Part shown: one piece after another, positions 1,145-56,612 of the stretch | How positions within the stretch are numbered: position 1 is the first letter of the stretch | Layout of the letters: the number at the start of each line of letters is the position of its first letter | Assembly (NCBI GenBank): GCA_934446485.1 | Contig: CAKSEM010000001.1 | Span: 12,594-76,593 of the forward strand | DNA length: 64,000 nt | Direction: 5' to 3' | From: an uncultured Eubacteriales bacterium | Lineage (GTDB): Bacteria; Bacillota; Clostridia; Oscillospirales; CAG-272 | Position numbers and translations under genes: made by a program | The notes under the pieces: model-generated | What the model was told of the DNA's origin: nothing | Seen by the model: only the letters and a program-made list of their open reading frames with translations | Databases searched by the model: none

Positions 1145-2592
1145 TGGCAGCAGTAAAAGGACAGCCGAGCTTTCATATCCTCATTTCTCTTATAGAGATT
1201 TGGGATATGAAAGACCCGAAGAAACCAATGGCAGAACCAGAAAGCCCATTGCGCATAACTGAGGTAGAAAGCATCCAGATAGATGATTCGTATCGAAAGT
1301 TGATAGGCACAGCATCGGTAAAATTCCCTCGTGGCACGGTCATTAAAAAGACCATCACCACTTTGAATGAACAAGAAAATGCCAATAAGGTGTCGGCAAC
1401 TGTTGATGATGCTGGAGTATTGATAACCACCAGAACCGACTCAAAGGTTGCTTCTGTTGCAGATTTCAAGGTAGGTCAGAGAATACGGATTTACTTGGGA
1501 TATACAGAAGACCCAACGATTGCAGCTCTCACAAAACTTGATGCAAGCAAGAAGTCTATATTCAATGACAGCGACAAATTGAAAAAGTATAAGGAGAAAT
1601 TGAAGATTATGTTTGAAGGCTATATTACAAAATGTAGCATTGATACTCCTATTGAAATACAATGTGAGAATCTTGCCAGCGGCTTAAAAAAGATAACATG
1701 TCCAAAGGTTACAGCAAAGAAAAACATGACAGTAAATGACTTCTTAGCCGATAACGGAAAATATAAGTTACTTAAAAACAGTGGCTTGTCATTACATCCA
1801 GAAACTAAGTCATGTGAAATCAATATAGGAAAGGTAAATTTGACCAGTGATTTGACTGTAGCGGATGTGTTGACTGAATGGAGTAAGTATAAGGTGTTTG
1901 CTTTTGTTAAATTTAACGGAGATACGCCATACATCGCTGTTGGACGCTCTTATTTTTCCAATCCTGGTAAGGATTCTGTGCTGAATTATAGCGACAATAA
2001 ATCAGATATTCCAGAAATCCTTTTTGATTATCATGTTGCCAATAATGGTTTGACATTGATGAATACAGACAAGGACTTTTTAGCTGTTGAGGCTACAGGG
2101 TTAGATAAGGATGATAAGTTCTATCATATTACCATTCGCAAGAATCCAGATTATAATTCAAGTAAGAAAGGCTCTAAGAAATGGCAAGTGATGAACGAAA
2201 CAAAGTTGTCAAAAAAAGCCATGAAGTTAGGCGCAACTCCTCTTACAAAATCGAAAGATAGAGTAGATTTAAGTAAATATACAGTAATTCCTTATATGTC
2301 ACGCAAAATAGGTATTACCAAGGAAGCATTGTTGCAAGAAGCAATCAAATATTTTGAGAGCTATAATATGAACGGTATTGATGGACAGCTAACATTATTT
2401 GGTGACTTGAACTTGAAGACAGCTCAAAAAGTTCAGCTTACAGACAAACGCCATCCAGCCAAAAACGGCTATTATTTAGTAGATGAGATTTCGACAACTT
2501 TTGGTACTGGTGGTTATCGTCAGACGATAAAGTTGCCATATTGCATTGCAAAAATAAAGTCTGAAGATAAGAATGACAAGAAAACTACATAG
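1144..2592 (+). CDS. Hypothetical baseplate/tail protein (true start may be ATG 1207 or 1228)
   Basis: 482-aa ORF whose ATG overlaps the previous stop (TAATG). Sits upstream of the spike and fibre genes. Confidence 0.6.
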   Translation: MAAVKGQPSFHILISLIEIWDMKDPKKPMAEPESPLRITEVESIQIDDSYRKLIGTASVKFPRGTVIKKTITTLNEQENANKVSATVDDAGVLITTRTDSKVASVADFKVGQRIRIYLGYTEDPTIAALTKLDASKKSIFNDSDKLKKYKEKLKIMFEGYITKCSIDTPIEIQCENLASGLKKITCPKVTAKKNMTVNDFLADNGKYKLLKNSGLSLHPETKSCEINIGKVNLTSDLTVADVLTEWSKYKVFAFVKFNGDTPYIAVGRSYFSNPGKDSVLNYSDNKSDIPEILFDYHVANNGLTLMNTDKDFLAVEATGLDKDDKFYHITIRKNPDYNSSKKGSKKWQVMNETKLSKKAMKLGATPLTKSKDRVDLSKYTVIPYMSRKIGITKEALLQEAIKYFESYNMNGIDGQLTLFGDLNLKTAQKVQLTDKRHPAKNGYYLVDEISTTFGTGGYRQTIKLPYCIAKIKSEDKNDKKTT

Positions 2593-3538
2593 TGATTTGA
2601 GTCAGAACCAGACTATTCGTGAGGCTATCCGAAAGATAGCCTTGCGTGGTTTGGTAGACCCAAGCACAAATACGGTTCACGATACAGGTAGAGTCACAGG
2701 ATATGTCTGTAAGATTCATTCTGATGAAAGCGATGAGCTGTTTGGTACGGTAGACGTTCAAGAATACCCTACTATGGCATTTGAAACAACAGATGATATG
2801 CCAGTAGGTTTACATGAAGGTGTATTGCTAAGTGCCATGCAAAACAATATGAATGGAATGGTTATTATTCCTAAGCTGTATTCTGAAGTCACCATAGTGA
2901 CCGATCCTGCAAGTCATACAGAGTATGTTTCCATGTTTTCCCATGTAGACATCATCCAGCTCGATTCACATGACACTATCACAGTAGGCGTGAAAGAACG
3001 AGAACCGTTTAACGAAAGCGATGAAGACTCTCCAGATGTCAACGAATTGGAGGAGACAGGTGTGTATTCTCAAACAACATACAAGAAAAATTCTATCGTG
3101 ACCCAAGTTCAAGATAAAGATGATAAGAATAAGTCATCATTATCTATGGATGGCAATCAAATATGCGCAGCTGTTGGCAATGCTGAGAGCGAATATATCC
3201 AGAACCACGATAAGATAAGAGCAGCGCACGATAAGGCAGAGTTGGAGCTGAATGGCAGTGAAAGCACTATGAAATTTGGAGGTTCCAAAGTAAAGGTAGA
3301 AGATGGAACTGTCTATTTGGGCAGTGATAGTGGAACCGATGATGCTGTACTTGGTGGTCAATTAGCAGACATATTGATGGATATTGTTGGCTATATCAGT
3401 CAGATAAAGACAACCACACAACTTGGCCCACAACCACCTCTGAATATGGCACAGTTCATAGCTTTGAAATCAAAGATTAATTCGTTCAAGTCTTCGCATA
3501 GCGGATTCTTGACTAAGAAAGTACAAGTACAGAAATAA
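2573..3538 (+). CDS. Hypothetical baseplate/spike-like protein
   Basis: 321-aa ORF overlapping its neighbours. The product call rests only on context. Confidence 0.5.
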   Translation: MTRKLHSDLSQNQTIREAIRKIALRGLVDPSTNTVHDTGRVTGYVCKIHSDESDELFGTVDVQEYPTMAFETTDDMPVGLHEGVLLSAMQNNMNGMVIIPKLYSEVTIVTDPASHTEYVSMFSHVDIIQLDSHDTITVGVKEREPFNESDEDSPDVNELEETGVYSQTTYKKNSIVTQVQDKDDKNKSSLSMDGNQICAAVGNAESEYIQNHDKIRAAHDKAELELNGSESTMKFGGSKVKVEDGTVYLGSDSGTDDAVLGGQLADILMDIVGYISQIKTTTQLGPQPPLNMAQFIALKSKINSFKSSHSGFLTKKVQVQK

Positions 3539-37563: not shown

Positions 37564-38601
37564 ATGTATATCAGCAAGCAAGACAAAGATTTTCTCATCA
37601 AGGAATTGGAGATAGAGCTTCACGCTAAACTTGATGGCCCACGCAAGAACCTCATTTGCCCAGAGTGTCCTTATTGTGGCAAAAAAGGTGGCAAATTCGG
37701 CATCTATGTAGGGCAAGAAACAGAGAAGAAGAAGCTCTTTATGAGTCACTGCTTCTCATGTGGTCATACTACAAAAGATGTCAATCAGCTCTTAGAAGAC
37801 ATTGGCAGACCAGACTTAATGCTGGAAGATACTGCCAGCTTCGCTCCATTACAGATACCGCAGTTCTGCAATCTGGAAGAAGATGAGATTGACGATGAAC
37901 TTGTTTCTGTTGATATGCCAGAAGGATGGAAACGGTGTTACCGTAACGCCTATCTGAAGAAACGTGGCTATACTTGTGATGATTACGACTACTTTCCTGT
38001 TGGTACAACCAGAGGTCTTAATTTCAAATTTGACGATTATGTCGTATTTCCCATCATTGATAATGGTGACATTGTAGGATATGTATCTCGCCATACATGG
38101 AGTAAGGATAAGATAGATTCTTACAATAAGAAAGCCAGACGTAACGGCAAATTTGAAATTAGACGATACAACAACAGCCAAGAAAATGACTTTACAAAGT
38201 TGCTTTACAACTATGACGCAGTGATAGAAGATGTAACAGATACTGTCATATTGGTTGAAGGAGTATTCGATTGTGTCTCGCTTGTCAGAAAGCTTGATTT
38301 GTATGACAATCATCGTATTGCAGTAGTAGCTACGTTCGGAAAGAAAGTTTCAGAAGCGCAAATTTACAAGCTGCAAAGTAAAGGCGTAAGAACTGTAGTG
38401 ATTGGATATGATGGCGATGCTTTGTCTGCAACAAACACAGCAGCAGCCATGTTAAACGAGTATTTCGATTGCTATATAGCCTTCATAGAAGACCCAGAAG
38501 CCGACTTTGACAGTATGGATTTTTGGGACATCTACGATACTTTTAGCGAGAGATTAATGACACCAAGAGAGTTCAAATTAAACTTAGTGCAATTATTATG
38601 A
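37564..38601 (+). CDS. DnaG-like primase (zinc ribbon + TOPRIM)
   Basis: 345 aa. 'CPECPYCGKKGGKF...HCFSCGH', TOPRIM 'ILVEGVFDCVS' and 'GYDGDA'. Confidence 0.8.
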   Translation: MYISKQDKDFLIKELEIELHAKLDGPRKNLICPECPYCGKKGGKFGIYVGQETEKKKLFMSHCFSCGHTTKDVNQLLEDIGRPDLMLEDTASFAPLQIPQFCNLEEDEIDDELVSVDMPEGWKRCYRNAYLKKRGYTCDDYDYFPVGTTRGLNFKFDDYVVFPIIDNGDIVGYVSRHTWSKDKIDSYNKKARRNGKFEIRRYNNSQENDFTKLLYNYDAVIEDVTDTVILVEGVFDCVSLVRKLDLYDNHRIAVVATFGKKVSEAQIYKLQSKGVRTVVIGYDGDALSATNTAAAMLNEYFDCYIAFIEDPEADFDSMDFWDIYDTFSERLMTPREFKLNLVQLL

Positions 38602-40304
38602 ATGAATTAATAAAATGGCTGGAGGATAATAAAATAACATATAATCTCATTGACAATGAGGTTATCGAGCTTCCAGATTTCGGCAAAATGTTCTTTGAAG
38701 ATACGGAAAGTATGAAATCCATATTCCGCACCAACAAGGATGATGAGCTGATATTTAACAGTATGGAAGATCCAGAAGTTTTGATGGCAGAAGGTATTAA
38801 CTATATTGTATTCAAGTTTGGAGACAACTGGTATTACTACGACTTACGCAAGGACTTCAAGCTGAATATCCTTAAATACGTTGGTAAAAGAACACCATCA
38901 AATCATAAGTTTGAGTATGTCAATTTAGGTGTTCACACGCCTTTTGAACTACTGAATGGAAGCTTTATGCCAACATATTGGGTAAGAAAAGCCAAGTATT
39001 TGGGACATCCAGGAATCGGTATTTGTGATAAAAATACGATGGCAGCTTGCTACAATCTGCAAAAAGAATGTGAGGCGGCTGGACTGAAATATGTATTTGG
39101 ATATTCATTAGTGTTCTCTGATGGTGAGCATACAGTTGGTGCAAAAGTTTATGTTCAGTCACAAAAAGGATTGCGGAATCTGTTGCGAATACAGAAAGCC
39201 ATTATGGTAGACAGCACGGATAAGATTATTCCTTTGGAAGAATTGCTGAATCGTGGTGAAGGCAATGTAATTGTACTTGACAAGTATTCTTCATTCTGGA
39301 TTACTGAAAACCAAGACATTGTAAAGGATTTGCAAGAGTCTTTTGATTGTGTCTTTTGGCAAGTAGATTTGTCGGAATATAAGGCAGAACGTATTGACAT
39401 CAAAGTATTAGAAGCAGCCAAACATTATTTTGACAATATATATGGCAAGATGGGCGTATATCCAGTGCTTCTTACAGATGCCTATTATCTGGATGAAGAC
39501 GATGCCAAGAATAAAATTATCCTCAATAAGGTTGCAGATGGCGCAGCGCATGAGCAAAGTAATCAGCAATACTTCAAAGATGTTGATGAACAATATCAAC
39601 TTTTTGCTGACACATTTGATGCCGATAAATGGGATATTGACAGTCTATTTCAAGAATGTTGCGACAATTCTATGGATATATTGGAACATGCCAATGCAAG
39701 GTTTGAAAATAATAGAAACTTCATGCCTAAATACGACATGACTCCAGAAGAGCAAGCAAAATATGGAACATCACACAACATGTTCATTCAACTCTTAGAG
39801 GAAGGGTTGCAACGCCTCGTACCGCCAGAGCAACAAGATAAGTACCGCAAGCAGATGGAATATGAGCGATACATCATTGAGTCAACAAACAATGTGGACT
39901 ATTTGCTTGTACAGTATGACACATGTAATTGGGCAAGACGAAACAATATCCTTGTCGGTTGTGGACGTGGTTCTGCTGCTGGATGCTTATTGCTATATCT
40001 GCTTGGTATAACGCTCATTGACCCGATGAGATACGACCTTATCTTTGAACGCTTCTTGCTACCAGAACGAGCAGGATTATATCCAGCCAAAACAACCATT
40101 ATCGGTGAGGATTTGGAGTCCAAAGAATATATCGAAGTAGAATTGGATGGTGGCAAGGTAATAAAGATAGACAAGGATGCCCAGCTGATTATCAAGCGTG
40201 AAGGTGAAGAGGAGCCTCGTGTAATATACGCAGATGAGCTGGAAACAAATGATGACATTTTGTTCGATAATAAGGATTTAATATTCACAATAAACGAAAT
40301 TTAG
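38598..40304 (+). CDS. dnaE: DNA polymerase III alpha, N-terminal fragment (PHP domain plus start of palm) with a 75-aa non-DnaE C-terminal extension
   Basis: 568 aa. PHP-like 'YVNLGVHTPFELLNGS', then 'GCGRGSAAGCLLLYLLGITLIDPMRYDLIFERFLLPERAG'. From 40077 to 40301 the sequence is unrelated to DnaE. Confidence 0.8.
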   Translation: MNELIKWLEDNKITYNLIDNEVIELPDFGKMFFEDTESMKSIFRTNKDDELIFNSMEDPEVLMAEGINYIVFKFGDNWYYYDLRKDFKLNILKYVGKRTPSNHKFEYVNLGVHTPFELLNGSFMPTYWVRKAKYLGHPGIGICDKNTMAACYNLQKECEAAGLKYVFGYSLVFSDGEHTVGAKVYVQSQKGLRNLLRIQKAIMVDSTDKIIPLEELLNRGEGNVIVLDKYSSFWITENQDIVKDLQESFDCVFWQVDLSEYKAERIDIKVLEAAKHYFDNIYGKMGVYPVLLTDAYYLDEDDAKNKIILNKVADGAAHEQSNQQYFKDVDEQYQLFADTFDADKWDIDSLFQECCDNSMDILEHANARFENNRNFMPKYDMTPEEQAKYGTSHNMFIQLLEEGLQRLVPPEQQDKYRKQMEYERYIIESTNNVDYLLVQYDTCNWARRNNILVGCGRGSAAGCLLLYLLGITLIDPMRYDLIFERFLLPERAGLYPAKTTIIGEDLESKEYIEVELDGGKVIKIDKDAQLIIKREGEEEPRVIYADELETNDDILFDNKDLIFTINEI

Positions 40305-40306
40305 TT

Positions 40307-41617
40307 ATGATGCAATTGACAAATGAAATGGTTGAAGCTGTAGACATCATACAGAATACCAACCAATCGCTTTATATTACAGGAAAAGCTGGTACAGGAA
40401 AGACTACATTCTTGCGATATATTGTGAACAACATTAAGAAGAAGTTTATCGTAACAGCATCTACAGGAATTGCAGCTGTAAATGCTGGAGGTGTAACGCT
40501 TCACAGTTTGCTCAACATTCCTTTTGGAGTGCTTACGGAATCAGAGAATGTGCATAGTAGCTATAAGCCAGAAAAGGCGATGCTGCTTCGTTCTATTGAT
40601 GCTATCATCATTGATGAGGTAAGTATGGTACGCCCAGACGTGATTGACTACGTTGATAGAAAGTTACAGATGTACCGTGGCAGCAGTGAGCCTTTCGGAG
40701 GCGTACAAATCATTATGTTTGGTGACTTATTCCAGTTGCCGCCAGTGGTAAAAGCTGATGAACAGCATATATTGTCACAGTTCTATCGTGGCATATATTT
40801 CTTCCATGCTCATGTATGGCGCAATGCTGGTTTCAAAGTAATCGAGTTGACGCATATCTTCCGTCAGAACGACAAGCGTTTCATCGAAATACTCAATAAT
40901 ATACGAGAATATCGTATAATGCAAGAAGATATAGATGACCTGGCCGCATTAAGAAACAAGAATGAAAGCAAGGATTTCTCCAACTCCAGCATACATATAT
41001 GTGCTTACCGCAAGGACGTACAGAAAATCAACACAGAATTGCTTGGAGAGCCTACGCATGTTTATAAAGCAATGGTTACTGGAGATTTCCAACCCAATTC
41101 AGCACCATGTGAACAAGAGCTAAAACTTCGTGTTGGAGCAAGGGTTATGATGCTCGTAAATGACCCAGCACATGTATACTGCAATGGCTCGTTGGGTGAG
41201 GTTGTAAATCTCAACGATAAAGTTGTTACAGTAAAACTTGATAATGGTTGTACTGTAGGCGTAATGCCAAATACTTGGTCTGCTAAAGAATATCGCATGA
41301 TGAACGATAAGATTGAGACCATTGATAAAGGCTCTTGTACGCAGTTCCCAATAGCGTTGGCATGGGCAATTACTATTCATAAGAGTCAAGGTTTGACTTT
41401 TGACAATGTTGTTATCCATACAAAGGGCTGCTTCGTTCCTGGACAGTTATATGTTGCTTTGAGTCGTTGCAGAACACTGGAAGGTATTGTATCTGACACA
41501 TTTATTGATAAGAGACACATCTTGACCGACATGGAACTGGTGAAGTTTACGGAAGCGTATAAATTGAACAATAACATCTTTGACAACGAAACATATAAGA
41601 TTATGAGACGAGTATGA
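40307..41617 (+). CDS. PIF1/RecD-family helicase inserted between the two dnaE fragments
   Basis: 436 aa. 'ITGKAGTGKTTFL', 'AIIIDEVSMV', 'FGDLFQLPPV', 'TIHKSQGLTFD'. There are 2 nt after the dnaE-N stop, and its own stop overlaps the dnaE-C start (ATGA). Confidence 0.85.
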   Translation: MMQLTNEMVEAVDIIQNTNQSLYITGKAGTGKTTFLRYIVNNIKKKFIVTASTGIAAVNAGGVTLHSLLNIPFGVLTESENVHSSYKPEKAMLLRSIDAIIIDEVSMVRPDVIDYVDRKLQMYRGSSEPFGGVQIIMFGDLFQLPPVVKADEQHILSQFYRGIYFFHAHVWRNAGFKVIELTHIFRQNDKRFIEILNNIREYRIMQEDIDDLAALRNKNESKDFSNSSIHICAYRKDVQKINTELLGEPTHVYKAMVTGDFQPNSAPCEQELKLRVGARVMMLVNDPAHVYCNGSLGEVVNLNDKVVTVKLDNGCTVGVMPNTWSAKEYRMMNDKIETIDKGSCTQFPIALAWAITIHKSQGLTFDNVVIHTKGCFVPGQLYVALSRCRTLEGIVSDTFIDKRHILTDMELVKFTEAYKLNNNIFDNETYKIMRRV

Positions 41618-44600
41618 AAGTTGTAAGTGCAACATTAAAAACATCGGACACTCCAGTCAAGACAATAGATACTTTTGTTGATGATGGATATTTGCAAGGC
41701 GAAGGCGGCTCGCTCCCAGATGTGGATAATGATTTCCAAAGTGACAAACGCCAGGAAGTAAAAGAATATACTGAGAGACGATATAATAAAAACGGTTTAC
41801 AGCGTGTATTTTCAGCTGGAACCTATACGACATTGAAGTCTAAGGCTTGTTTGAAAGATGTGGCTCGTACAATGCGTATTCCGACATCTATCGTGAACTA
41901 TATTACTGCTATCATTGATGATGACAAGTGTGATTATACAGGTCTATTTAAGTTAGCAGCAACTAACAAAAAGGTTGCAAAATTCATTGGAGACCATCCA
42001 CAACTCTTTGAAGATGTACGCACGTTGATGTTTCAGCCTCGTTCCAGCTCTGTTCATGCTTCTGCATTGCTGATAACTCCAGATACAAAAGATGGTGAGA
42101 CGATGGAATGTTTTGACTATGTGCCTATCAAGAAGGTTGATGGCATTTTGGTTAGCGAGAATGATGGCTACGAACTTGACGAACTTGGTTTGCTGAAGAA
42201 CGATTGCCTTGCAACCAAGGAACTTTCTAAAATCCACCAGACACTCGACTTGGTAAATTCTGTATATCATCAAGACATTACTCTGGAAAAGTTAGCGACA
42301 GGCTCGCTGGATGACGAAAAGGTATATGAAGTATTAGCAAACGGCTGTACACAAAACGTATTCCAGTTCTCATCACACGGTATCACCAAATTCTTGACTG
42401 AAATGAAGCCGAGTAATATTGGTGACTTGATTGCTGCAAATGCCCTTTATCGCCCTGCCACAATGGGTAACTTGGATGATTATGTGAACTGTAAGAAAGG
42501 ACTTGTAGCTCCTGTATATCTTTGGGGGACATACAATTCACTGAAAGACACCTTCGGTCTGGTGGTATTCCAGGAGCAGATTGTAATGATGGCTCGTGAG
42601 GTTGGTGGATTCAGTCTTGGCGAAGGTGTAAAGCTCGTTAAATTCGTTTCCAAGAAAAAGACGGATAAGATTCGAGCTATGAAAGACAAGTTCATGGCTG
42701 GAGCTAAGAGGAACGGATGTCCACAGGAGGATGCGGATAAAATATGGGCGCAGATTGAGGCTGCTGGTACATACTGTTTTAATAAGTGTATATCTGGCAA
42801 AGAACGAATCCGTAGAAGCAATAGGACTTCTGGTGGTTTGACAATTGCTGAAATGTATAAAGTGATGAATGACCGTGCTTGGGCTGTTGCTCATGGTCAT
42901 AAATCATTGCATGACAGATATAGACGTGTTGGATATGGCAAAGGTTGGTCGCTTGTTCACACTGATGGATATGATGAATATTTGTTGAAAAATGATATTG
43001 TTGATATTCGCTATATGGGTATTCGCCCTCTCTATCGTATTACTTTAGAAGATGGTAGAACAATTGATGTAACAGATAATCATAAGCATCCTACAAACAA
43101 TGGTATGAAGCGCACGGATGAGTTACAAGTTGGTGTAGATAAAATGTATGTAAATATTGGTTCTTTGAGCGAAGATACGGTTTACCGCTTCACAGATAAA
43201 GGCAGTTCAAACGATACATACTATCATTCCAATGATAATGTTCAGCAATATGAACTTAATTCAGAAAAAGGACATTGTGGCTTTACCAAGCGTGATACTA
43301 ACTATACTCTACTTGAAAAGTATCGTAAGGAGCAAATGAAAAGCCATTGTGAAAAGTGTGGAAAATCCGATTGCAGATTGGAAATCCATCATATAAATGG
43401 AGACCATTCCGTGATAGGCGATAACTATTCCAATTTGCAAACACTTTGTTCTTCGTGCCATAAGAAAGCTCATTATGCAATGGGCAGAGCAAAACAGGGC
43501 GAGAAAGGTTTGTATACAGAACTTCGAGCTGTTGTTTCTGTTGAATATATTGGTGATGATGAAGTGTATGATGTAGAAATGGCAGACCCATATCACACAT
43601 TCACGACAGAACAAGGTGTTGTAACATGCAATAGCCATGCTACTGCCTATGCCGTAACAGCCTATGCTGGAGCCTGGTTGAAAGTACATTATCCGACAGC
43701 TTTCTATACCGTTGCTCTCCAGTGGGCAGATGATAATGAGCTTGTTGCGCTAATGGGAGAAATGGAGGCTATCAGTAATGCAAAGGTTGTACCTCCAGAC
43801 ATCAATGTTAGTGAGGATATATTCCATACAGACTACAATACCAACGAAATATTCTGGTCAATCTCCAGAATCAAACAACTTGGCGCAAAAGCTGTACAAT
43901 GGATTATGGATGAGCGCAAAAAGAATGGTGAGTTCACAAGTATCACCAACTTCATCGACCGTATATTCAAGTACAAGCTGAAGAAGTATGAGTATTGGGA
44001 TGATCCAGACAACGAAGAAGAGGCTACACGATGCCCAGTGAACGCTCGTTGTGTGTTGAATCTTATTCTTGCTGGTTGCTTTGATAAGGTGGAACATGCT
44101 GGTTCCGTAATAGAACGTTACGCCATCATAGAAAAGGCAGCAGAACAGCTTGGTTTTGAGATAAAAGAGAAAGACATACCAGTAGATATGCGAGGCAAGC
44201 ATTATTTCTGGAGCCAACAACAAGTAAAGGTGTCTGGAATTGGTTCTGTGGACTATAAGCGTATTTATGATAATTCTGCTATTAAGCCACAACTGAAAGG
44301 CAGAGTGTCGTATGCAACCTTGCAAAGCATCACGCCAAACGAAATGGATGGCAAAAAAGTTGGTGTGTGTGCTACAGTCGTTGAAGTTGAAGAAAAGAAG
44401 TTCAAAAGCAAGAAAACTGGTGGCGAAGAAACCTTCTGCAAACTCCTTCTTCAGCAAAATAATGACTTGTGCGAATGTATTGTGTGGCCAGAAGAATATA
44501 AATCCATGCGCCCACAACTCATAGATTCAAAAAACAAATTGATAATTTTCTCAGCAACTGTCAAGTATAGTGATTATGCTGGAAAGAACAACTTACAGTT

Positions 44601-44631
44601 TATGAAACGAAGTTTATTGGAAGTATTATGA
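41614..44631 (+). CDS. dnaE: DNA polymerase III alpha, C-terminal fragment (catalytic PDxDxDF onward) containing an HNH intein
   Basis: 1005 aa. After a 32-aa leader comes 'SLPDVDNDF...', which continues the DnaE alignment. 'GTYCFNK' and 'SHATAYAVTAYAGAWLKVHYP' flank a 282-aa insert. Confidence 0.85.
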   Translation: MKVVSATLKTSDTPVKTIDTFVDDGYLQGEGGSLPDVDNDFQSDKRQEVKEYTERRYNKNGLQRVFSAGTYTTLKSKACLKDVARTMRIPTSIVNYITAIIDDDKCDYTGLFKLAATNKKVAKFIGDHPQLFEDVRTLMFQPRSSSVHASALLITPDTKDGETMECFDYVPIKKVDGILVSENDGYELDELGLLKNDCLATKELSKIHQTLDLVNSVYHQDITLEKLATGSLDDEKVYEVLANGCTQNVFQFSSHGITKFLTEMKPSNIGDLIAANALYRPATMGNLDDYVNCKKGLVAPVYLWGTYNSLKDTFGLVVFQEQIVMMAREVGGFSLGEGVKLVKFVSKKKTDKIRAMKDKFMAGAKRNGCPQEDADKIWAQIEAAGTYCFNKCISGKERIRRSNRTSGGLTIAEMYKVMNDRAWAVAHGHKSLHDRYRRVGYGKGWSLVHTDGYDEYLLKNDIVDIRYMGIRPLYRITLEDGRTIDVTDNHKHPTNNGMKRTDELQVGVDKMYVNIGSLSEDTVYRFTDKGSSNDTYYHSNDNVQQYELNSEKGHCGFTKRDTNYTLLEKYRKEQMKSHCEKCGKSDCRLEIHHINGDHSVIGDNYSNLQTLCSSCHKKAHYAMGRAKQGEKGLYTELRAVVSVEYIGDDEVYDVEMADPYHTFTTEQGVVTCNSHATAYAVTAYAGAWLKVHYPTAFYTVALQWADDNELVALMGEMEAISNAKVVPPDINVSEDIFHTDYNTNEIFWSISRIKQLGAKAVQWIMDERKKNGEFTSITNFIDRIFKYKLKKYEYWDDPDNEEEATRCPVNARCVLNLILAGCFDKVEHAGSVIERYAIIEKAAEQLGFEIKEKDIPVDMRGKHYFWSQQQVKVSGIGSVDYKRIYDNSAIKPQLKGRVSYATLQSITPNEMDGKKVGVCATVVEVEEKKFKSKKTGGEETFCKLLLQQNNDLCECIVWPEEYKSMRPQLIDSKNKLIIFSATVKYSDYAGKNNLQFMKRSLLEVL
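42787..43632 (+). mobile_element. Intein with HNH homing-endonuclease domain in dnaE
   Basis: Begins 'CISGKERI' (Cys1). Block B 'VTDNHKH'. HNH 'CEKCGK...LEIHHINGDH...NLQTLCSSCHKKAH'. Blocks F/G 'EVYDVEMADPYHTFTTEQGVVTCN' followed by Ser +1. Removing it restores the DnaE 'FNKSHA' motif. Confidence 0.85.
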
Positions 44632-49069: not shown

Positions 49070-49133
49070 ATTGTTGAGTTATGTAATATAAACTTTACCA
49101 CCACAATATAAACTATTCATAAATAAAAAAACT

Positions 49134-49919
49134 ATGGTGGTATATTCTTTATTAGACCCTAATGATGGTGTTGTTCGCTATATCGGCATCACAACATTAA
49201 CTGCTAAAAAACGATTTGCAATTCATTTGAAGGATGCGAAGACTAAACGTAGAAAGGGATTGTATATGAGCAAAAAGGAAAAGTGGCTGTTGGAGTTGTT
49301 TGAAAATAACCAACGCCCGATTATTTCCACTTTGTTTACAGATTTGGCTAAAAGCGATGCGGAAGAAAAAGAAAAGCAGCTAATCGCTTTATATAAACGC
49401 ACATCGGAAGGGGGTATTCTTTATAATGTGCAAGAAGGTGGGGAATTTCATTCTGATATGATGACACCTTGGAATAAAGATAAACATAACTGCTATAGTG
49501 AGGATTTCTTGTTGAATAATAAGTTGAATCAACCTAATAGTAAGAAAGTTTATCGCTTCACTAAAGATGGAGAATTAATAGATGTATGGAATAGCACAAG
49601 AGATATGTGCGCAACTTTGAATTTTGATAGAAGAACTGTTATGCGATGCTTGCATAAAGAGGAGAATTTTATATCACATAAGGGATATATGTTTAGCTAT
49701 GAAAAAATATCACCACAGTATGTGAATAAATCAACTTTAGCAACATACCATAATAGCCCACATGCAAAATCAATTCTTGTAACTTTCAAAGATGGGCAGC
49801 AAATAAAATTTAATAGCATTAAAGAAGCTGCTGAAAAACTTGAAATACACGCATCGTGTATTAGTAGTGTGATGAAGACCACACAATCTTATAAACAATA
49901 TAAATTCAAATTCTTATAA
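49134..49919 (+). CDS. Free-standing GIY-YIG homing endonuclease
   Basis: 261 aa. N-terminus 'VVYSLLDPNDGVVRYIGIT...RFAIH' is the GIY...YIG motif. Basic C-terminal DNA-binding-like half. Its stop overlaps the terL ATG (TAATG). Confidence 0.8.
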   Translation: MVVYSLLDPNDGVVRYIGITTLTAKKRFAIHLKDAKTKRRKGLYMSKKEKWLLELFENNQRPIISTLFTDLAKSDAEEKEKQLIALYKRTSEGGILYNVQEGGEFHSDMMTPWNKDKHNCYSEDFLLNNKLNQPNSKKVYRFTKDGELIDVWNSTRDMCATLNFDRRTVMRCLHKEENFISHKGYMFSYEKISPQYVNKSTLATYHNSPHAKSILVTFKDGQQIKFNSIKEAAEKLEIHASCISSVMKTTQSYKQYKFKFL

Positions 49920-50155
49920 TGGCATACGGACAATTAAAAGCACCGACCAACATTAGAATTGATTTTAAGCCATCACCAAGACAGTATGAGCTTTGGAAAT
50001 TATTACAACCAGATTATTGTCCTCATTGTGGTGGTCATATTATACAAGTTCAATCTGGATATGATCAGCAAGGTAATCCAAAATATGTTCCACAATGCGA
50101 TGCTTGCGGAACGCAAGATCTCCCTCAATTGATTTTGGGTGGAGGTGCTGCTGGT
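49919..50155 (+). CDS. terL: Terminase large subunit, exon 1
   Basis: 79 codons ending '...LILGGGAAG', the first half of the Walker A box. Past 50155 the ORF runs into intron sequence and stops at 50209. Confidence 0.75.
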
Positions 50156-50423
50156 AAACAATGCCCACTGCCAGCCTTCACGGTAACGTGTCGAAAAATA
50201 GCTCTTTAATTGCTGGGAAACCCTAACTACGAATTAGAAGGGCAATCAGCAGCCAAGCCTTATTGTAAGGAAGGTTCAACGACTATTCCGCAAGGAAGTA
50301 CAGCCAAGCGGCTGGAAATGGGAGCCTCCAGTTTTCTCTGGATGAAGATATAGTCTAATCTGCATAGAAGATATGCAGCCGTAACAGGGTTAAGAAGTAG
50401 CGTCTCTTAATAAATACAAATTG
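50156..50423 (+). mobile_element. Group I (IA-like) self-splicing intron, ORF-less
   Basis: P1: exon GCUGGU (50150-50155) pairs with IGS GCCAGC (50170-50175), giving U-G at the splice site. P10: exon-2 GGUGG pairs with CCACU (50165-50169). Terminal G at 50423. 'GAAGAUAUAGUC' J8/7-P7 motif at 50344-50355, with the GACUA partner at 50281-50285. GNRA-capped hairpins include cacg-GUAA-cgtg and a P7.1-like ttcc-GCAA-ggaa, followed by a P7.2-like hairpin. Confidence 0.8.
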
Positions 50424-55945: not shown

Positions 55946-55966
55946 ATTCCAATGACAAATCGCTTG

Positions 55967-56040
55967 TGGAGAAGGTGAGACTCGAACTCACGACCCTATG
56001 CTTGCAAAGCATACGCTCTTGCCATCTGAGCTACAACCCC
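55967..56040 (-). tRNA. tRNA-Ala (anticodon UGC)
   Basis: Hand-folded cloverleaf. G3-U70 Ala identity pair. Anticodon loop TTTGCAA. T loop TTCGAGT. Tandem U-U mismatches at 5:68 and 6:67. Confidence 0.75.
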
Positions 56041-56046
56041 AAATTG

Positions 56047-56120
56047 CGGAACTGGGAGGACTTGAACCTCCGACCCTTGCATTAACAGTGCAACGCTCTG
56101 ACCAACTGAGCTACAGAACC
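56047..56120 (-). tRNA. tRNA-Asn (anticodon GUU)
   Basis: Hand-folded cloverleaf. Anticodon loop CTGTTAA. Discriminator G. Tandem U-U mismatches at 3:70 and 4:69. Confidence 0.75.
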
Positions 56121-56128
56121 TTTTGTAG

Positions 56129-56200
56129 AGGGCAATGCTGGAATCGAACCAGCGTAAAACTGTTTTGCAGACAGCCGCCTAACCACTCGACTAATTGCCC
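56129..56200 (-). tRNA. tRNA-Cys (anticodon GCA)
   Basis: Perfect acceptor stem GGGCAAT/ATTGCCC. Discriminator U73. Anticodon loop CTGCAAA. T arm GCTGG-TTCGATT-CCAGC. Confidence 0.85.
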
Positions 56201-56213
56201 CATGAAAAATATG

Positions 56214-56513
56214 TTACTTTGCCGTATAGAGTCTCATACCGCAATGGAAATGAGGCATGACTGCAAGATAATAACCTCTTGTTGTCGGCTTTCCGTATGT
56301 ATCAAGTTTATTAGCTATCGTATGATGTAGAGCCTTTTCATGTGTGCAAACTCCAACAACACCATTATAGCCAACATGCTTGAAATATTTGCAGTTGCCA
56401 CATACAGGCTTCTTGTCAAGCTCGATGTCACACTGCGGAACTTCATTCTTCTTATTCTTGTGCAGGAACTTCCCCAGTTTATTCCTAACACGCTTCATAA
56501 TACCTATTCCCAT
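56214..56513 (-). CDS. Small Cys/His-rich hypothetical protein embedded in the tRNA cluster
   Basis: 99-aa ORF that exactly fills the gap between tRNA-Cys and tRNA-Met. Contains 'CGNCKYFKH...C..H'. Confidence 0.5.
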   Translation of the reverse strand: MGIGIMKRVRNKLGKFLHKNKKNEVPQCDIELDKKPVCGNCKYFKHVGYNGVVGVCTHEKALHHTIANKLDTYGKPTTRGYYLAVMPHFHCGMRLYTAK

Positions 56514-56540
56514 ATTTGCTTTTGTTTCGCTGTTTTATAG

Positions 56541-56612
56541 TTGCAGAGACTGGAATCGAACCAGTGACCTCCAGGTAATGAGCCTGGCGAGCTACCGCTG
56601 CTCTACTCTGCG
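56541..56612 (-). tRNA. Initiator-type tRNA-Met (anticodon CAU)
   Basis: C1xA72 mismatch. 'GAGCAGCGGTAGCTCG' D arm as in bacterial tRNA-fMet. Anticodon loop CTCATTA. Confidence 0.8.

What the first reader, a model, noticed from the sequence alone, without database searches (positions are those of the whole stretch)
42787..43632. HNH-endonuclease intein in the DnaE 'GFNKSHA' motif
The 282 codons start with Cys ('CISGKERI'), contain block B 'TDNH', a full HNH module ('LEIHHINGDH...NLQTLCSSCHKKAH'), and end 'EVYDVEMADPYHTFTTEQGVVTCN|S'. Removing them restores 'GTYCFNK-SHATAYAVTAYAGAWLKVHYP', compared with E. coli '[27 protein letters not shown]'. The insertion point is three residues from the site of the cyanobacterial split DnaE intein (which lies before CFNKSH). 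The penultimate residue is Cys rather than the usual His. With the break at 40304/41614, this polymerase carries two independent interruptions.
Basis: partly seen in the sequence, partly recalled or inferred. Interest (0 to 1): 0.6.

Follow-up and report, generated by a model that had tools for sequence, protein, structure and literature searches.

The report
HNH homing intein in phage DnaE
The 846 bases are a real self-splicing protein insert (an intein) with its own DNA-cutting domain, sitting in the replicative polymerase gene of an uncultured gut Bacteroidales phage; it belongs to a widespread family that is abundant in metagenomes, so it is a clean but ordinary example.

Summary
Window 42787-43632 is an in-frame, 282-codon insertion in the C-terminal half of a phage DnaE-type polymerase. 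It starts with Cys, has block B T-x-x-H and an intact HNH/zinc motif, and ends in Cys-Asn followed by Ser.

Near-identical phage genomes carry the same gene without these exact 846 bp. Their protein reads ...GTYCFNK|SHATAY... Others carry an HNH-deleted 193-aa version, or unrelated 145-169-aa mini-inteins, at the same codon.

An AlphaFold model matches solved inteins (Ssp and Npu DnaB, Mtu RecA, Ssp and Npu DnaE). dN/dS is 0.06-0.11 across the intein, including the HNH part.

A profile search finds this intein family at the same F-N-K|S-H junction in over 100 diverse DnaE clusters. The penultimate residue is Cys or Ser in nearly all of them, so the "unusual" Cys is typical of the family.

The cyanobacterial split-intein site lies four residues upstream, not three.

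This is a new member of a known kind: PolIII-alpha finger-domain inteins and in-frame HNH inteins are both described.

Side observations:
- The DnaE split with a Dda/PIF1 helicase gene between the halves is conserved across relatives.
- The terminase gene carries a group I intron.
- A GIY-YIG endonuclease gene lies just upstream of the terminase.

The parts
42787..43632 (+). Complete intein: 282 codons, from Cys1 (TGT) to Asn282 (AAT)
   Evidence: Translation. Precise 846-bp indel against L001. Pfam Intein_splicing E 6.7e-8 and HNH 31.1 bits. AF2 model and Foldseek hits to solved inteins.
42787..43161 (+). N-terminal splicing subdomain (intein aa 1-125). Holds block A (Cys1, Gly4) and block B (T96-x-x-H99 at 43072-43083). 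Includes a roughly 22-aa helical insert (aa ~27-48) that the 145-aa mini-inteins lack.
   Evidence: Alignments. pLDDT above 90 over most of it. TIGR01445 intein_Nterm matches aa 1-100.
43165..43347 (+). Linker preceding the HNH core (intein aa ~127-187). Low model confidence. Possibly a DNA-binding region of the endonuclease.
   Evidence: pLDDT below 50 for aa 127-134 and 138-173. dN/dS 0.04-0.10. Absent from the HNH-deleted and mini alleles.
43348..43473 (+). HNH endonuclease core (intein aa 188-229): C188-x2-C191, H201-H202, N216, C221-x2-C224-H225
   Evidence: Pfam PF01844 31.1 bits against a cut-off of 21.4. PHROG HNH endonuclease families. PDB profile hits to the IscB and McrA HNH domains. 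These residues are 97-100% conserved in 120 family members.
43510..43632 (+). C-terminal splicing subdomain (intein aa 242-282). Holds block F (D262, H270) and block G ending T280-C281-N282.
   Evidence: Alignments. pLDDT 85-98.
43633..43635 (+). +1 Ser codon (AGC), the C-extein nucleophile
   Evidence: The +1 position is S-H in about 100 family members.
41614..42786 (+). N-extein: the first 391 residues of the C-terminal DnaE fragment, ending ...GTYCFNK
43633..44631 (+). C-extein (SHATAYAV... to the stop codon), including the HhH domain
38598..40304 (+). N-terminal DnaE fragment (PHP domain plus the start of the palm). It belongs to the same polymerase but is a separate ORF.

Best explanation
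This is a class 1 intein carrying a nested HNH homing endonuclease. It is inserted between Lys and Ser of the conserved G-F-N-K-S-H motif in the fingers region of a phage DnaE-type (family C) DNA polymerase.

Inferred mechanism, from established class 1 chemistry:
- The C-terminal DnaE fragment is translated as a 1005-aa precursor.
- Cys1 undergoes an N-S acyl shift, assisted by block B Thr96 and His99.
- The thioester is transferred to the +1 Ser.
- Asn282 cyclises, assisted by block F Asp262 and His270 rather than by a penultimate His.
- An O-N shift then leaves the 723-aa polymerase fragment with an intact ...CFNK-SHATAY... motif, plus a free 282-aa intein.

At the DNA level the freed HNH protein is inferred to cut intein-less alleles of co-infecting phages at or near TTCAATAAA|AGCCATGC. 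Recombinational repair then copies the intein in (homing).

Shown here: the insertion is precise, the fold and all catalytic residues are present, empty, HNH-deleted and mini alleles coexist in the same phage species, and the whole element is under purifying selection.

Inferred, not shown: splicing activity, the cleavage site, and homing.
For: - Precise indel. The window and L001 are collinear at 93.5% and 96.1% nt identity on the two sides of an exact 846-bp gap. The empty allele P0026 is 99.9% identical in the extein.
- Residues. C1, T96, H99, D262, H270 and N282 are invariant or nearly so in 15 same-site alleles and in 120 family members.
- Family models. Pfam Intein_splicing E 6.7e-8, HNH above its cut-off, TIGR01445 E 1.5e-4.
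- Solved structures by sequence. A profile of the family hits Npu DnaB intein 4o1r (1.2e-8), Ssp DnaB 1mi8, DnaE intein 7qil, and the IscB HNH domain.
- Fold. The AF2 model has mean pLDDT 79.4. The top 45 Foldseek PDB hits (E<=1e-3) are all inteins, with 6frg at 1.6e-7 and TM-score up to 0.83 normalised on the target.
- Homing-cycle states at the same codon. There are 278-285-aa HNH forms, a 193-aa HNH deletion (P0003), and 145-169-aa mini-inteins.
- Extein/intein discordance. P0010 has an extein 99.7% identical but an intein only 59% identical. P0023 has an extein 66% identical but an intein 77% identical.
- Selection. dN/dS is 0.06-0.08 for the intein and 0.06-0.11 for the HNH part.
- Distribution. 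There are 207 clusters at E<=1e-30. At least 100 of the best 148 have the intein at F-N-[KRA]|S-H of DnaE.
- Independent assemblies. It is seen in P0001 (241 member sequences), L056 and L057.
Against: - No experiment. Splicing and endonuclease activity are inferred from sequence only.
- The Pfam Intein_splicing score (32.9) and the TIGR01445 score (22.7) fall just below their curated cut-offs (35.8 and 24.5).
- The penultimate residue is Cys, not the canonical His.
- No clear co-conversion tract was seen next to the insertion in a comparison of three occupied and four empty alleles.
- dS in the intein is similar to dS in the N-extein. This copy may therefore have been inherited vertically for some time rather than acquired recently.
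Confidence: 0.93

Rival explanations
1. The element is a splicing-competent intein, but its HNH domain no longer works as a homing endonuclease. It is now inherited only vertically, or its HNH has been co-opted for another role.
For: dS of the intein (0.40-0.68) is close to that of the adjacent N-extein (0.49-0.62). No co-conversion tract is visible. HNH-deleted and mini derivatives show that the endonuclease is dispensable and gets lost.
Against: All HNH catalytic and zinc residues are 97-100% conserved in 120 members. dN/dS of the HNH part is 0.06-0.11. Extein/intein phylogenetic discordance and presence/absence polymorphism within one phage species both indicate ongoing lateral movement.
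Confidence: 0.2
2. The insert is a lineage-specific domain of the polymerase, or a HINT/BIL-type domain that only cleaves or stays in place. It is not a spliced intein.
For: The curated intein HMM scores are slightly below their thresholds. The penultimate His is absent.
Against: Alleles lacking exactly these 282 codons are the majority among close relatives: 92 of the 120 best hits. The insert interrupts a motif conserved from E. coli and Taq to phages. Cys1, T-x-x-H, the terminal Asn and a +1 Ser are all present and conserved. An unspliced 32-kDa insert in the fingers of an essential polymerase is hard to reconcile with dN/dS 0.007-0.03 in the exteins.
Confidence: 0.03
3. Splicing is conditional. 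The conserved penultimate Cys281, together with Cys1, forms a disulfide or a metal site. Polymerase maturation then depends on redox state or zinc, making the intein a post-translational switch and not only a parasite.
For: The penultimate residue is Cys in 64 of 120 family members. Redox-trapped and zinc-inhibited DnaE inteins exist among solved structures (3nzm; Sun et al. 2005 as cited in PMC4031507). In phage inteins the penultimate residue has been shown to tune splicing rate (PMC5050341).
Against: Ser is almost as frequent as Cys at this position (47 of 120), so the thiol is not required. The hosts are strict anaerobes, where disulfides are unlikely.
Confidence: 0.1

Closest known systems
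Inteins of the PolIII-alpha (DnaE) finger-domain hot spot: insertion points a-d and g within a 75-residue stretch (Novikova et al. 2016, PMC4760082)
   Same: Same host protein and same region. The family found here also occurs in full-length bacterial-type DnaE (P0145, P0141). A second site used by relatives of this phage (GLVV|FQEQ) lies 62 residues upstream, so both sites fit inside the described hot spot.
   Different: I could not establish which lettered site, if any, corresponds to F-N-K|S-H, because the figure is not held. The published census listed 116 PolIII-alpha inteins, mostly the cyanobacterial split ones. The phage-borne HNH family seen here (207 clusters at 50% identity) is far larger than that census.
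Cyanobacterial split DnaE inteins (Ssp and Npu DnaE, site a)
   Same: Same motif of the same protein. Both are class 1 with Cys1 and lack a penultimate His (Ala or Ser there, Cys or Ser here). Blocks A, B, F and G align by eye. There are weak profile hits to 2keq and 4kl5.
   Different: The cyanobacterial inteins insert before CFNK and use Cys as +1. This one inserts after CFNK (four residues downstream) and uses Ser as +1. It is contiguous rather than split and carries an HNH domain. By profile and by fold it is closer to DnaB inteins than to Ssp or Npu DnaE.
In-frame HNH inteins of actinobacteriophage DNA polymerases (bioRxiv 10.1101/2025.01.02.630785), for example Gordonia phage Wojtek gp72, a DnaE-like polymerase
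   Same: A phage DnaE-type polymerase with an HNH nested in a HINT domain, inserted in the same F-N-K motif. tblastn gives 29.8% identity over 67% of the intein.
   Different: In Wojtek the insert lies after ...ATYSF, two residues upstream. It ends ...IHHN with a canonical penultimate His and appears to be followed by Asn. Identity is low. No close relative of the present intein exists among 50,697 deposited phage genomes.
Npu and Ssp DnaB mini-inteins (4o1r, 1mi8, 6frg)
   Same: These are the best sequence-profile and fold matches. Like this intein they have the Cys1 and +1 Ser chemistry (the latter from my own knowledge of Ssp DnaB).
   Different: Different host protein. They have a penultimate His. 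The solved forms are engineered mini-inteins without an endonuclease.
Fractured genes (Dassa et al. 2009, PMC2677866). This comparison concerns the neighbouring DnaE split, not the intein itself.
   Same: A replication gene is split into two adjacent ORFs with another gene between them. DnaE is among the published examples.
   Different: In the published cases the halves carry functional split inteins and the intervening gene is a homing endonuclease. Here the intervening gene is a Dda/PIF1 helicase. The 77-aa tail and 33-aa head lack Cys1, T-x-x-H and a terminal Asn.

Membership tests
Intein (class 1, HINT superfamily) | In-frame insertion in a conserved host-protein motif; homologues exist that lack exactly the insert | tested here: met
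   An 846-bp indel against L001 with 93.5% and 96.1% identical flanks. 92 of the 120 best hits are 723-aa empty alleles. The spliced sequence aligns without a gap to Taq and E. coli Pol III alpha.
Intein (class 1, HINT superfamily) | N-terminal nucleophile (Cys or Ser at position 1) and block B T-x-x-H | tested here: met
   C1, T96 and H99 are 99-100% conserved.
Intein (class 1, HINT superfamily) | C-terminal Asn followed by a +1 Cys, Ser or Thr | tested here: met
   ...VVTCN|S. The junction is N|S-H in about 100 family members.
Intein (class 1, HINT superfamily) | Penultimate His (block G:6) | tested here: not met
   The residue is Cys281. Across the family it is C 64, S 47, H 2 of 120. The literature shows this residue is dispensable: cyanobacterial DnaE inteins have Ala or Ser (PMC5874633), and phage inteins have Gly, Lys or Ser (PMC5050341). 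It is a common feature, not a defining one.
Intein (class 1, HINT superfamily) | HINT fold | tested here: met
   AF2 mean pLDDT is 79.4, with the splicing subdomains mostly above 90. The Foldseek top 45 PDB hits are all inteins, E down to 1.6e-7.
Intein (class 1, HINT superfamily) | Score above the curated cut-off of the family HMMs | tested here: inconclusive
   PF14890 scores 32.9 bits against 35.8. TIGR01445 scores 22.7 against 24.5. E-values are 6.7e-8 and 1.5e-4.
Intein (class 1, HINT superfamily) | Autocatalytic protein splicing | not testable with these tools
   This needs expression and detection of ligated exteins.
Class 3 intein | W-C-T triplet (block B Trp, block F Cys, block G Thr) with an internal Cys as first nucleophile | tested here: not met
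   Block B reads VTDNHKHPT with no Trp. Block F:4 is Asp262, not Cys.
HNH homing endonuclease nested in an intein | Intact HNH (beta-beta-alpha-Me) motif with its zinc-binding Cys pairs | tested here: met
   PF01844 scores 31.1 bits against 21.4. C188, C191, H201, H202, N216, C221, C224 and H225 are 97-100% conserved.
HNH homing endonuclease nested in an intein | Endonuclease inserted between the N- and C-terminal splicing subdomains; derivatives lacking it keep both subdomains | tested here: met
   Allele P0003 deletes aa ~146-234. The mini-inteins lack aa ~122-245.
HNH homing endonuclease nested in an intein | Sporadic presence or absence among close relatives, and intein phylogeny discordant with the host gene | tested here: met
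   9 of 74 IMG/VR relatives covering the site are occupied, and 2 of 7 within the same species. Discordant identities are shown.
HNH homing endonuclease nested in an intein | Site-specific cleavage of the intein-less allele | not testable with these tools
   This needs purified protein and the empty-allele substrate.
Cyanobacterial split DnaE intein allele (PolIII-alpha site a) | Insertion immediately before C-F-N-K, with the intein split into two genes | tested here: not met
   The insertion here is after C-F-N-K and the intein is contiguous.

The most novel reading that the evidence does not exclude
The family-wide replacement of the penultimate His by Cys (or Ser), next to the catalytic Cys1, makes maturation of the phage replicative polymerase conditional on thiol chemistry such as redox state or metal ions. 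On this reading the intein acts as a post-translational gate on phage DNA replication in the anaerobic gut, not as a pure parasite. If the natural 145-aa mini-inteins at the same site with a Ser +1 junction splice well, they would also be new tools for protein ligation.
Probability: 0.1. Interest if true: 0.6.

Novelty: new member of a known kind. Interest (0 to 1): 0.3.

Why it matters
This is a textbook-quality natural example of the intein homing cycle in one phage species. Empty sites, full HNH inteins, an HNH-deleted form and unrelated mini-inteins all coexist at the same codon of an essential gene, in abundant human-gut Bacteroidales phages.

It also shows that the F-N-K|S-H junction of DnaE hosts a large, mostly phage-borne HNH-intein family that is barely represented in deposited phage genomes. 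That matters for annotation, because these polymerases are called as over-long or "hypothetical" proteins. It is also a possible source of compact inteins with a Ser +1 junction.

It does not change what is known about how inteins work.

Tried and rejected
- megablast of the DnaE region against 50,697 phage records found no match. The nearest cultured relative is Bacteroides phage BS-TP1, at 71% aa identity.
- A word-indexed search with the intein alone returned only 12 fragments. The exhaustive HMM search was needed to see the family.
- Co-conversion tracts: 60-nt bins of nucleotide differences around the site show no local excess between occupied and empty alleles. The only consistent difference is the -1 Lys codon, AAG in 3 occupied alleles and AAA in 4 empty ones. 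The sample is too small to interpret.
- A special relationship to cyanobacterial DnaE split inteins was rejected. DnaB and RecA inteins score better by both profile and fold.
- Class 3 membership was rejected because there is no WCT triplet.
- I tested whether the DnaE split's 77-aa tail and 33-aa head form a degenerate split intein.
  - Pfam gave nothing.
  - hhalign against the intein profile gave 2.7% probability.
  - The best PDB profile hit is the Mja KlbA intein 2jmz, aligned at block B, but only at E 0.049.
  - The single-sequence model has pLDDT 64.7 and matches no intein; the best hits are cold-shock/OB-like at E 0.3.
  - There is no sequence similarity to the inserts that contiguous phage DnaEs carry at the same position.
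  - The result is inconclusive.
- I could not find which lettered PolIII-alpha site in Novikova et al. equals this junction.
Full report
**Observation.** Window 42787-43632 (+) translates to 282 residues without a stop. The sequence is CISGKERI...VTDNHKHPT...CEKCGKSDCRLEIHHINGDHSVIGDNYSNLQTLCSSCHKKAH...EVYDVEMADPYHTFTTEQGVVTCN, and the next codon is Ser. It lies inside ORF 41614-44631 (1005 aa). Outside the insert, that ORF matches Pfam DNA_pol3_alpha (aa 26-200), DNA_pol3_finger (204-368) and HHH_6 (723-791). It also matches NCBIfam DNA polymerase III alpha models in two stretches that skip the insert. The insert itself hits Pfam Intein_splicing (E 6.7e-8, 32.9 bits against a cut-off of 35.8), HNH (31.1 bits against 21.4) and TIGR01445 intein_Nterm (22.7 against 24.5).

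**Context.** The window is a tailed-phage genome. It encodes a DnaB-like helicase, a primase, a split DnaE, a Dda/PIF1 helicase, guanylate kinase, an exonuclease subunit, NrdD, tail proteins, a terminase and four tRNAs. No deposited phage is close at the DNA level. The nearest cultured relative is Bacteroides phage BS-TP1 (host Bacteroides salyersiae), at 71% aa identity in DnaE and with the same gene order. Related contigs occur in human faecal viromes, in Bacteroidales MAGs, and in the isolate assemblies of Lepagella muris and Prevotella sp. MGM2.

**The insertion is precise and polymorphic.**
- A search with the 1005-aa ORF returned many 723-aa proteins (1005 minus 282) that are 98-100% identical to the flanks and read ...AAGTYCFNKSHATAYAV....
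- At the DNA level, the contig carrying one of them (L001) is collinear with the window at 93.5% identity upstream and 96.1% downstream of an exact 846-bp gap.
- Among the 120 best hits, 92 are empty at this codon and 28 are occupied.
- Among 74 IMG/VR relatives that cover the site, 9 are occupied. Within the same species (at least 94% aa identity) the figure is 2 of 7.
- The same intein, at 99% extein identity, is present in two independent IMG/VR contigs and in a cluster of 241 member sequences. It is therefore not an assembly artefact.

**All stages of the homing cycle are seen at one codon.** The occupied alleles fall into four groups:
- 278-285-aa inteins with the HNH domain.
- A 193-aa form (P0003) that is 87% identical to the window's intein but has lost aa ~146-234, which is the HNH domain.
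- 169-aa mini-inteins.
- 145-147-aa mini-inteins.

All begin C-I-S/N/A-G and end (V/I/L)-T-C-N|S-H-A. The deletions place the endonuclease between the N- and C-terminal splicing subdomains, which is the canonical position. Extein and intein histories disagree. P0010 has an extein 99.7% identical to the window's but a mini-intein only 59% identical. P0023 has an extein 66% identical but an intein 77% identical. This is what lateral movement of the intein between phage genomes would produce.

**Splicing apparatus.**
- In 15 same-site alleles, the invariant residues include C1, G4, T96, H99, D262, H270, T280, C281 and N282.
- In 120 full-length family members, C1, T96, H99, H270 and N282 are 99-100% conserved and D262 is 92% conserved.
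- There is no Trp-Cys-Thr triplet, so this is a class 1 intein, not class 3.
- A profile of the family hits solved inteins by sequence: Npu DnaB 4o1r at 1.2e-8, Ssp DnaB 1mi8, a DnaE intein 7qil, gp41-1 and Npu DnaE.
- An AlphaFold2 model built with the 15-sequence alignment has mean pLDDT 79.4. Both splicing subdomains are mostly above 90, and confidence is low only in aa 127-173.
- Foldseek against the PDB returns only inteins among the 45 hits with E<=1e-3: Ssp and Npu DnaB, Mtu RecA, Ssp and Npu DnaE, Pab PolII, VMA and gp41-1.

**Penultimate Cys.** Within the family it is the commonest state: Cys 64, Ser 47, and Ala, Lys, Gly and His 2 each, of 120. The literature already documents the point. 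The penultimate His is poorly conserved in phage inteins, and replacing a native Gly by His slows one of them (PMC5050341). Cyanobacterial DnaE inteins have Ala or Ser there (PMC5874633), and a block F His can take over the role (PMC5050341). Here the block F Asp and His are conserved. I therefore expect splicing to proceed. A regulatory role for the thiol is possible but unsupported.

**Endonuclease.** The HNH core has both Cys pairs, the His-His, the Asn and the C-x-x-C-H. All are 97-100% conserved across 120 members. It matches the HNH domains of IscB and McrA and several PHROG HNH endonuclease families.

| Region (window vs L056 and L057; L056 vs L057) | dN/dS |
|---|---|
| HINT N-terminal subdomain | 0.04-0.06 |
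| Linker | 0.04-0.10 |
| HNH | 0.06-0.11 |
| HINT C-terminal subdomain | 0-0.035 |
| Exteins | 0.007-0.03 |

The whole element, including the nuclease, is under purifying selection. That argues for a working endonuclease. No co-conversion tract is visible, and dS in the intein resembles dS in the N-extein. This particular copy may not be a recent arrival.

**Position in the polymerase.** The spliced sequence aligns without gaps to Taq Pol III alpha residues 736-925 and to E. coli 680-864. The junction falls at Taq K815|S816 and, if the alignment is ungapped, at E. coli K758|S759. The native C-extein of the Ssp DnaE split intein is CFNK (PMC2664965). The cyanobacterial site is therefore four residues upstream, not three. 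Novikova et al. describe a PolIII-alpha intein hot spot in the fingers, with sites a-d and g inside 75 residues; site a is the split one (PMC4760082). Relatives of this phage (L068, L075, P0133) use a second site 62 residues upstream (GLVV|FQEQ). It holds a canonical C...HN|C intein, and L075 carries both inteins. The window is empty at that second site.

**Distribution.** An exhaustive HMM search of 1.84 billion representatives found 2380 hits at E<=1e-3 and 207 at E<=1e-30. Of the best 148, at least 100 have the intein at F-N-[K/R/A]|S-H. Their hosts are DnaE proteins of several architectures: split C-terminal halves, full-length phage-type polymerases, and bacterial-type DnaE. One of them (P0141) carries three inteins. 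This is therefore a large allele family and not a peculiarity of this genome. By contrast, only four weak matches exist among 50,697 deposited phage genomes. One of those is an HNH insert in the DnaE-like polymerase of Gordonia phage Wojtek, two residues upstream.

**Verdict.** This is a genuine class 1 intein with a nested HNH homing endonuclease, in the G-F-N-K-S-H motif of a gut phage DnaE. Both ingredients are known: PolIII-alpha finger-domain inteins and in-frame HNH inteins (PMC4760082; bioRxiv 10.1101/2025.01.02.630785). It is a new member of a known kind. Its interest lies mainly in how completely the homing cycle is displayed and in the size of the family in metagenomes.

**The other 'interruption'.** The DnaE N-terminal part (38598-40304) and C-terminal part (41614-44631) are separate ORFs with a Dda/PIF1-like helicase gene (40307-41617) between them. 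The split lies between FERFLxPER and the catalytic PDxDxDF. The N-fragment ends in a conserved 77-aa tail and the C-fragment starts with a conserved 33-aa head. Both are present in all relatives, including those where the two halves are adjacent with no helicase between them (L031-L036, L067, L070, L072, L076). The split is therefore old and independent of the helicase gene. By eye the tail and head resemble a split intein that has lost Cys1, T-x-x-H and the terminal Asn. The tests were inconclusive.

**Other mobile elements in the window.** Compared with L001, L004 and L005, the window has two further insertions near the start of the terminase gene. One is an 843-bp segment (49073-49915) holding a GIY-YIG/NUMOD endonuclease ORF (49134-49919). 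The other is a 269-bp segment inside terL that Rfam identifies as a group I intron (50116-50378, 90.3 bits against a gathering score of 50). This genome therefore carries at least three homing-type elements.

Noticed in passing
window 38598-40304, 40307-41617, 41614-44631: DnaE is encoded as two ORFs, split between FERFLxPER and PDxDxDF, with a Dda/PIF1-like helicase gene between them. The N-fragment has a conserved 77-aa tail and the C-fragment a conserved 33-aa head. Relatives L031-L036, L067, L070, L072 and L076 keep the split but have no helicase between the halves. The tail and head look by eye like a catalytically dead split intein. The best PDB profile hit is the Mja KlbA intein (E 0.049), but hhalign, Pfam and a single-sequence AF2 model do not support it.
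   Followed up: partly
window 50116-50378 (indel 50155-50423): A group I intron (Rfam RF00028, 90.3 bits, full-length match) interrupts the terminase large-subunit gene about 236 nt after its start. It is absent from the otherwise 94-96% identical loci L001 and L004, and from L005.
   Followed up: partly
window 49073-49915 (ORF 49134-49919): An 843-bp insertion immediately upstream of the terminase gene carries a free-standing GIY-YIG plus NUMOD/I-HmuI-like homing endonuclease ORF. It is absent from L001, L004 and L005.
   Followed up: partly
L068 6990-7375; L075 6990-7342; P0133 aa ~330-700; equivalent window position ~42600 (GLVV|FQEQ): Relatives carry a second, canonical intein (C1...VHN|C) 62 residues upstream of the site studied. 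It is a mini-intein in L068 and L075 and has a LAGLIDADG-sized insert in P0133. L075 and P0133 carry both inteins. The window is empty at this site.
   Followed up: partly
window 42784-42786 versus L001, L003, L004, L008, L056, L057: The Lys codon just before the intein is AAG in all three occupied same-species alleles and AAA in all four empty ones. This could be a co-converted base or a change in the target site. The sample is too small to decide.
   Followed up: no
L070, L080, L081 (DnaE C-fragment): Three independent IMG/VR contigs share the same pattern of frame changes in the intein-containing DnaE gene, at reference aa ~195, ~347 and ~392. This could be pseudogenisation, recoding or a shared sequencing error.
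   Followed up: no
L019, L026, L050, L058; also L017, L037, L041-L047: In several relatives the 35-aa head of the C-fragment lies in a different frame from the rest of the gene, 7-8 nt away. In others it is not detectable. This suggests the head is a separable module.
   Followed up: no
L082 (Gordonia phage Wojtek gp72) ~2300-3050: This DnaE-like polymerase has an HNH-containing HINT insert reading ...ATYSF|CVTGD...GFIHHN|NIAHC. The residue after the terminal Asn appears to be Asn, not Cys, Ser or Thr. That would be incompatible with standard splicing unless the boundary is elsewhere.
   Followed up: no
L086 (Lepagella muris NM04_E33, 141-kb contig, coverage 810); L088 (Prevotella sp. MGM2, 149-kb contig): Relatives of this phage's intein-containing DnaE sit on large, high-coverage contigs in assemblies of cultured Bacteroidales isolates. 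This suggests the phage was carried in those cultures, or is an extrachromosomal or prophage form.
   Followed up: no
window 42775-42777 (Cys of ...TYCFNK): The extein has Cys exactly where cyanobacterial DnaE has the +1 Cys of the split intein. E. coli and Taq have Gly, and other relatives have Leu, Ser or Gly. This may be a footprint of a former site-a intein or a coincidence.
   Followed up: no
window 55966-56612 (- strand): A cluster of four tRNA genes: Ala-TGC, Asn-GTT, Cys-GCA and Met-CAT.
   Followed up: no
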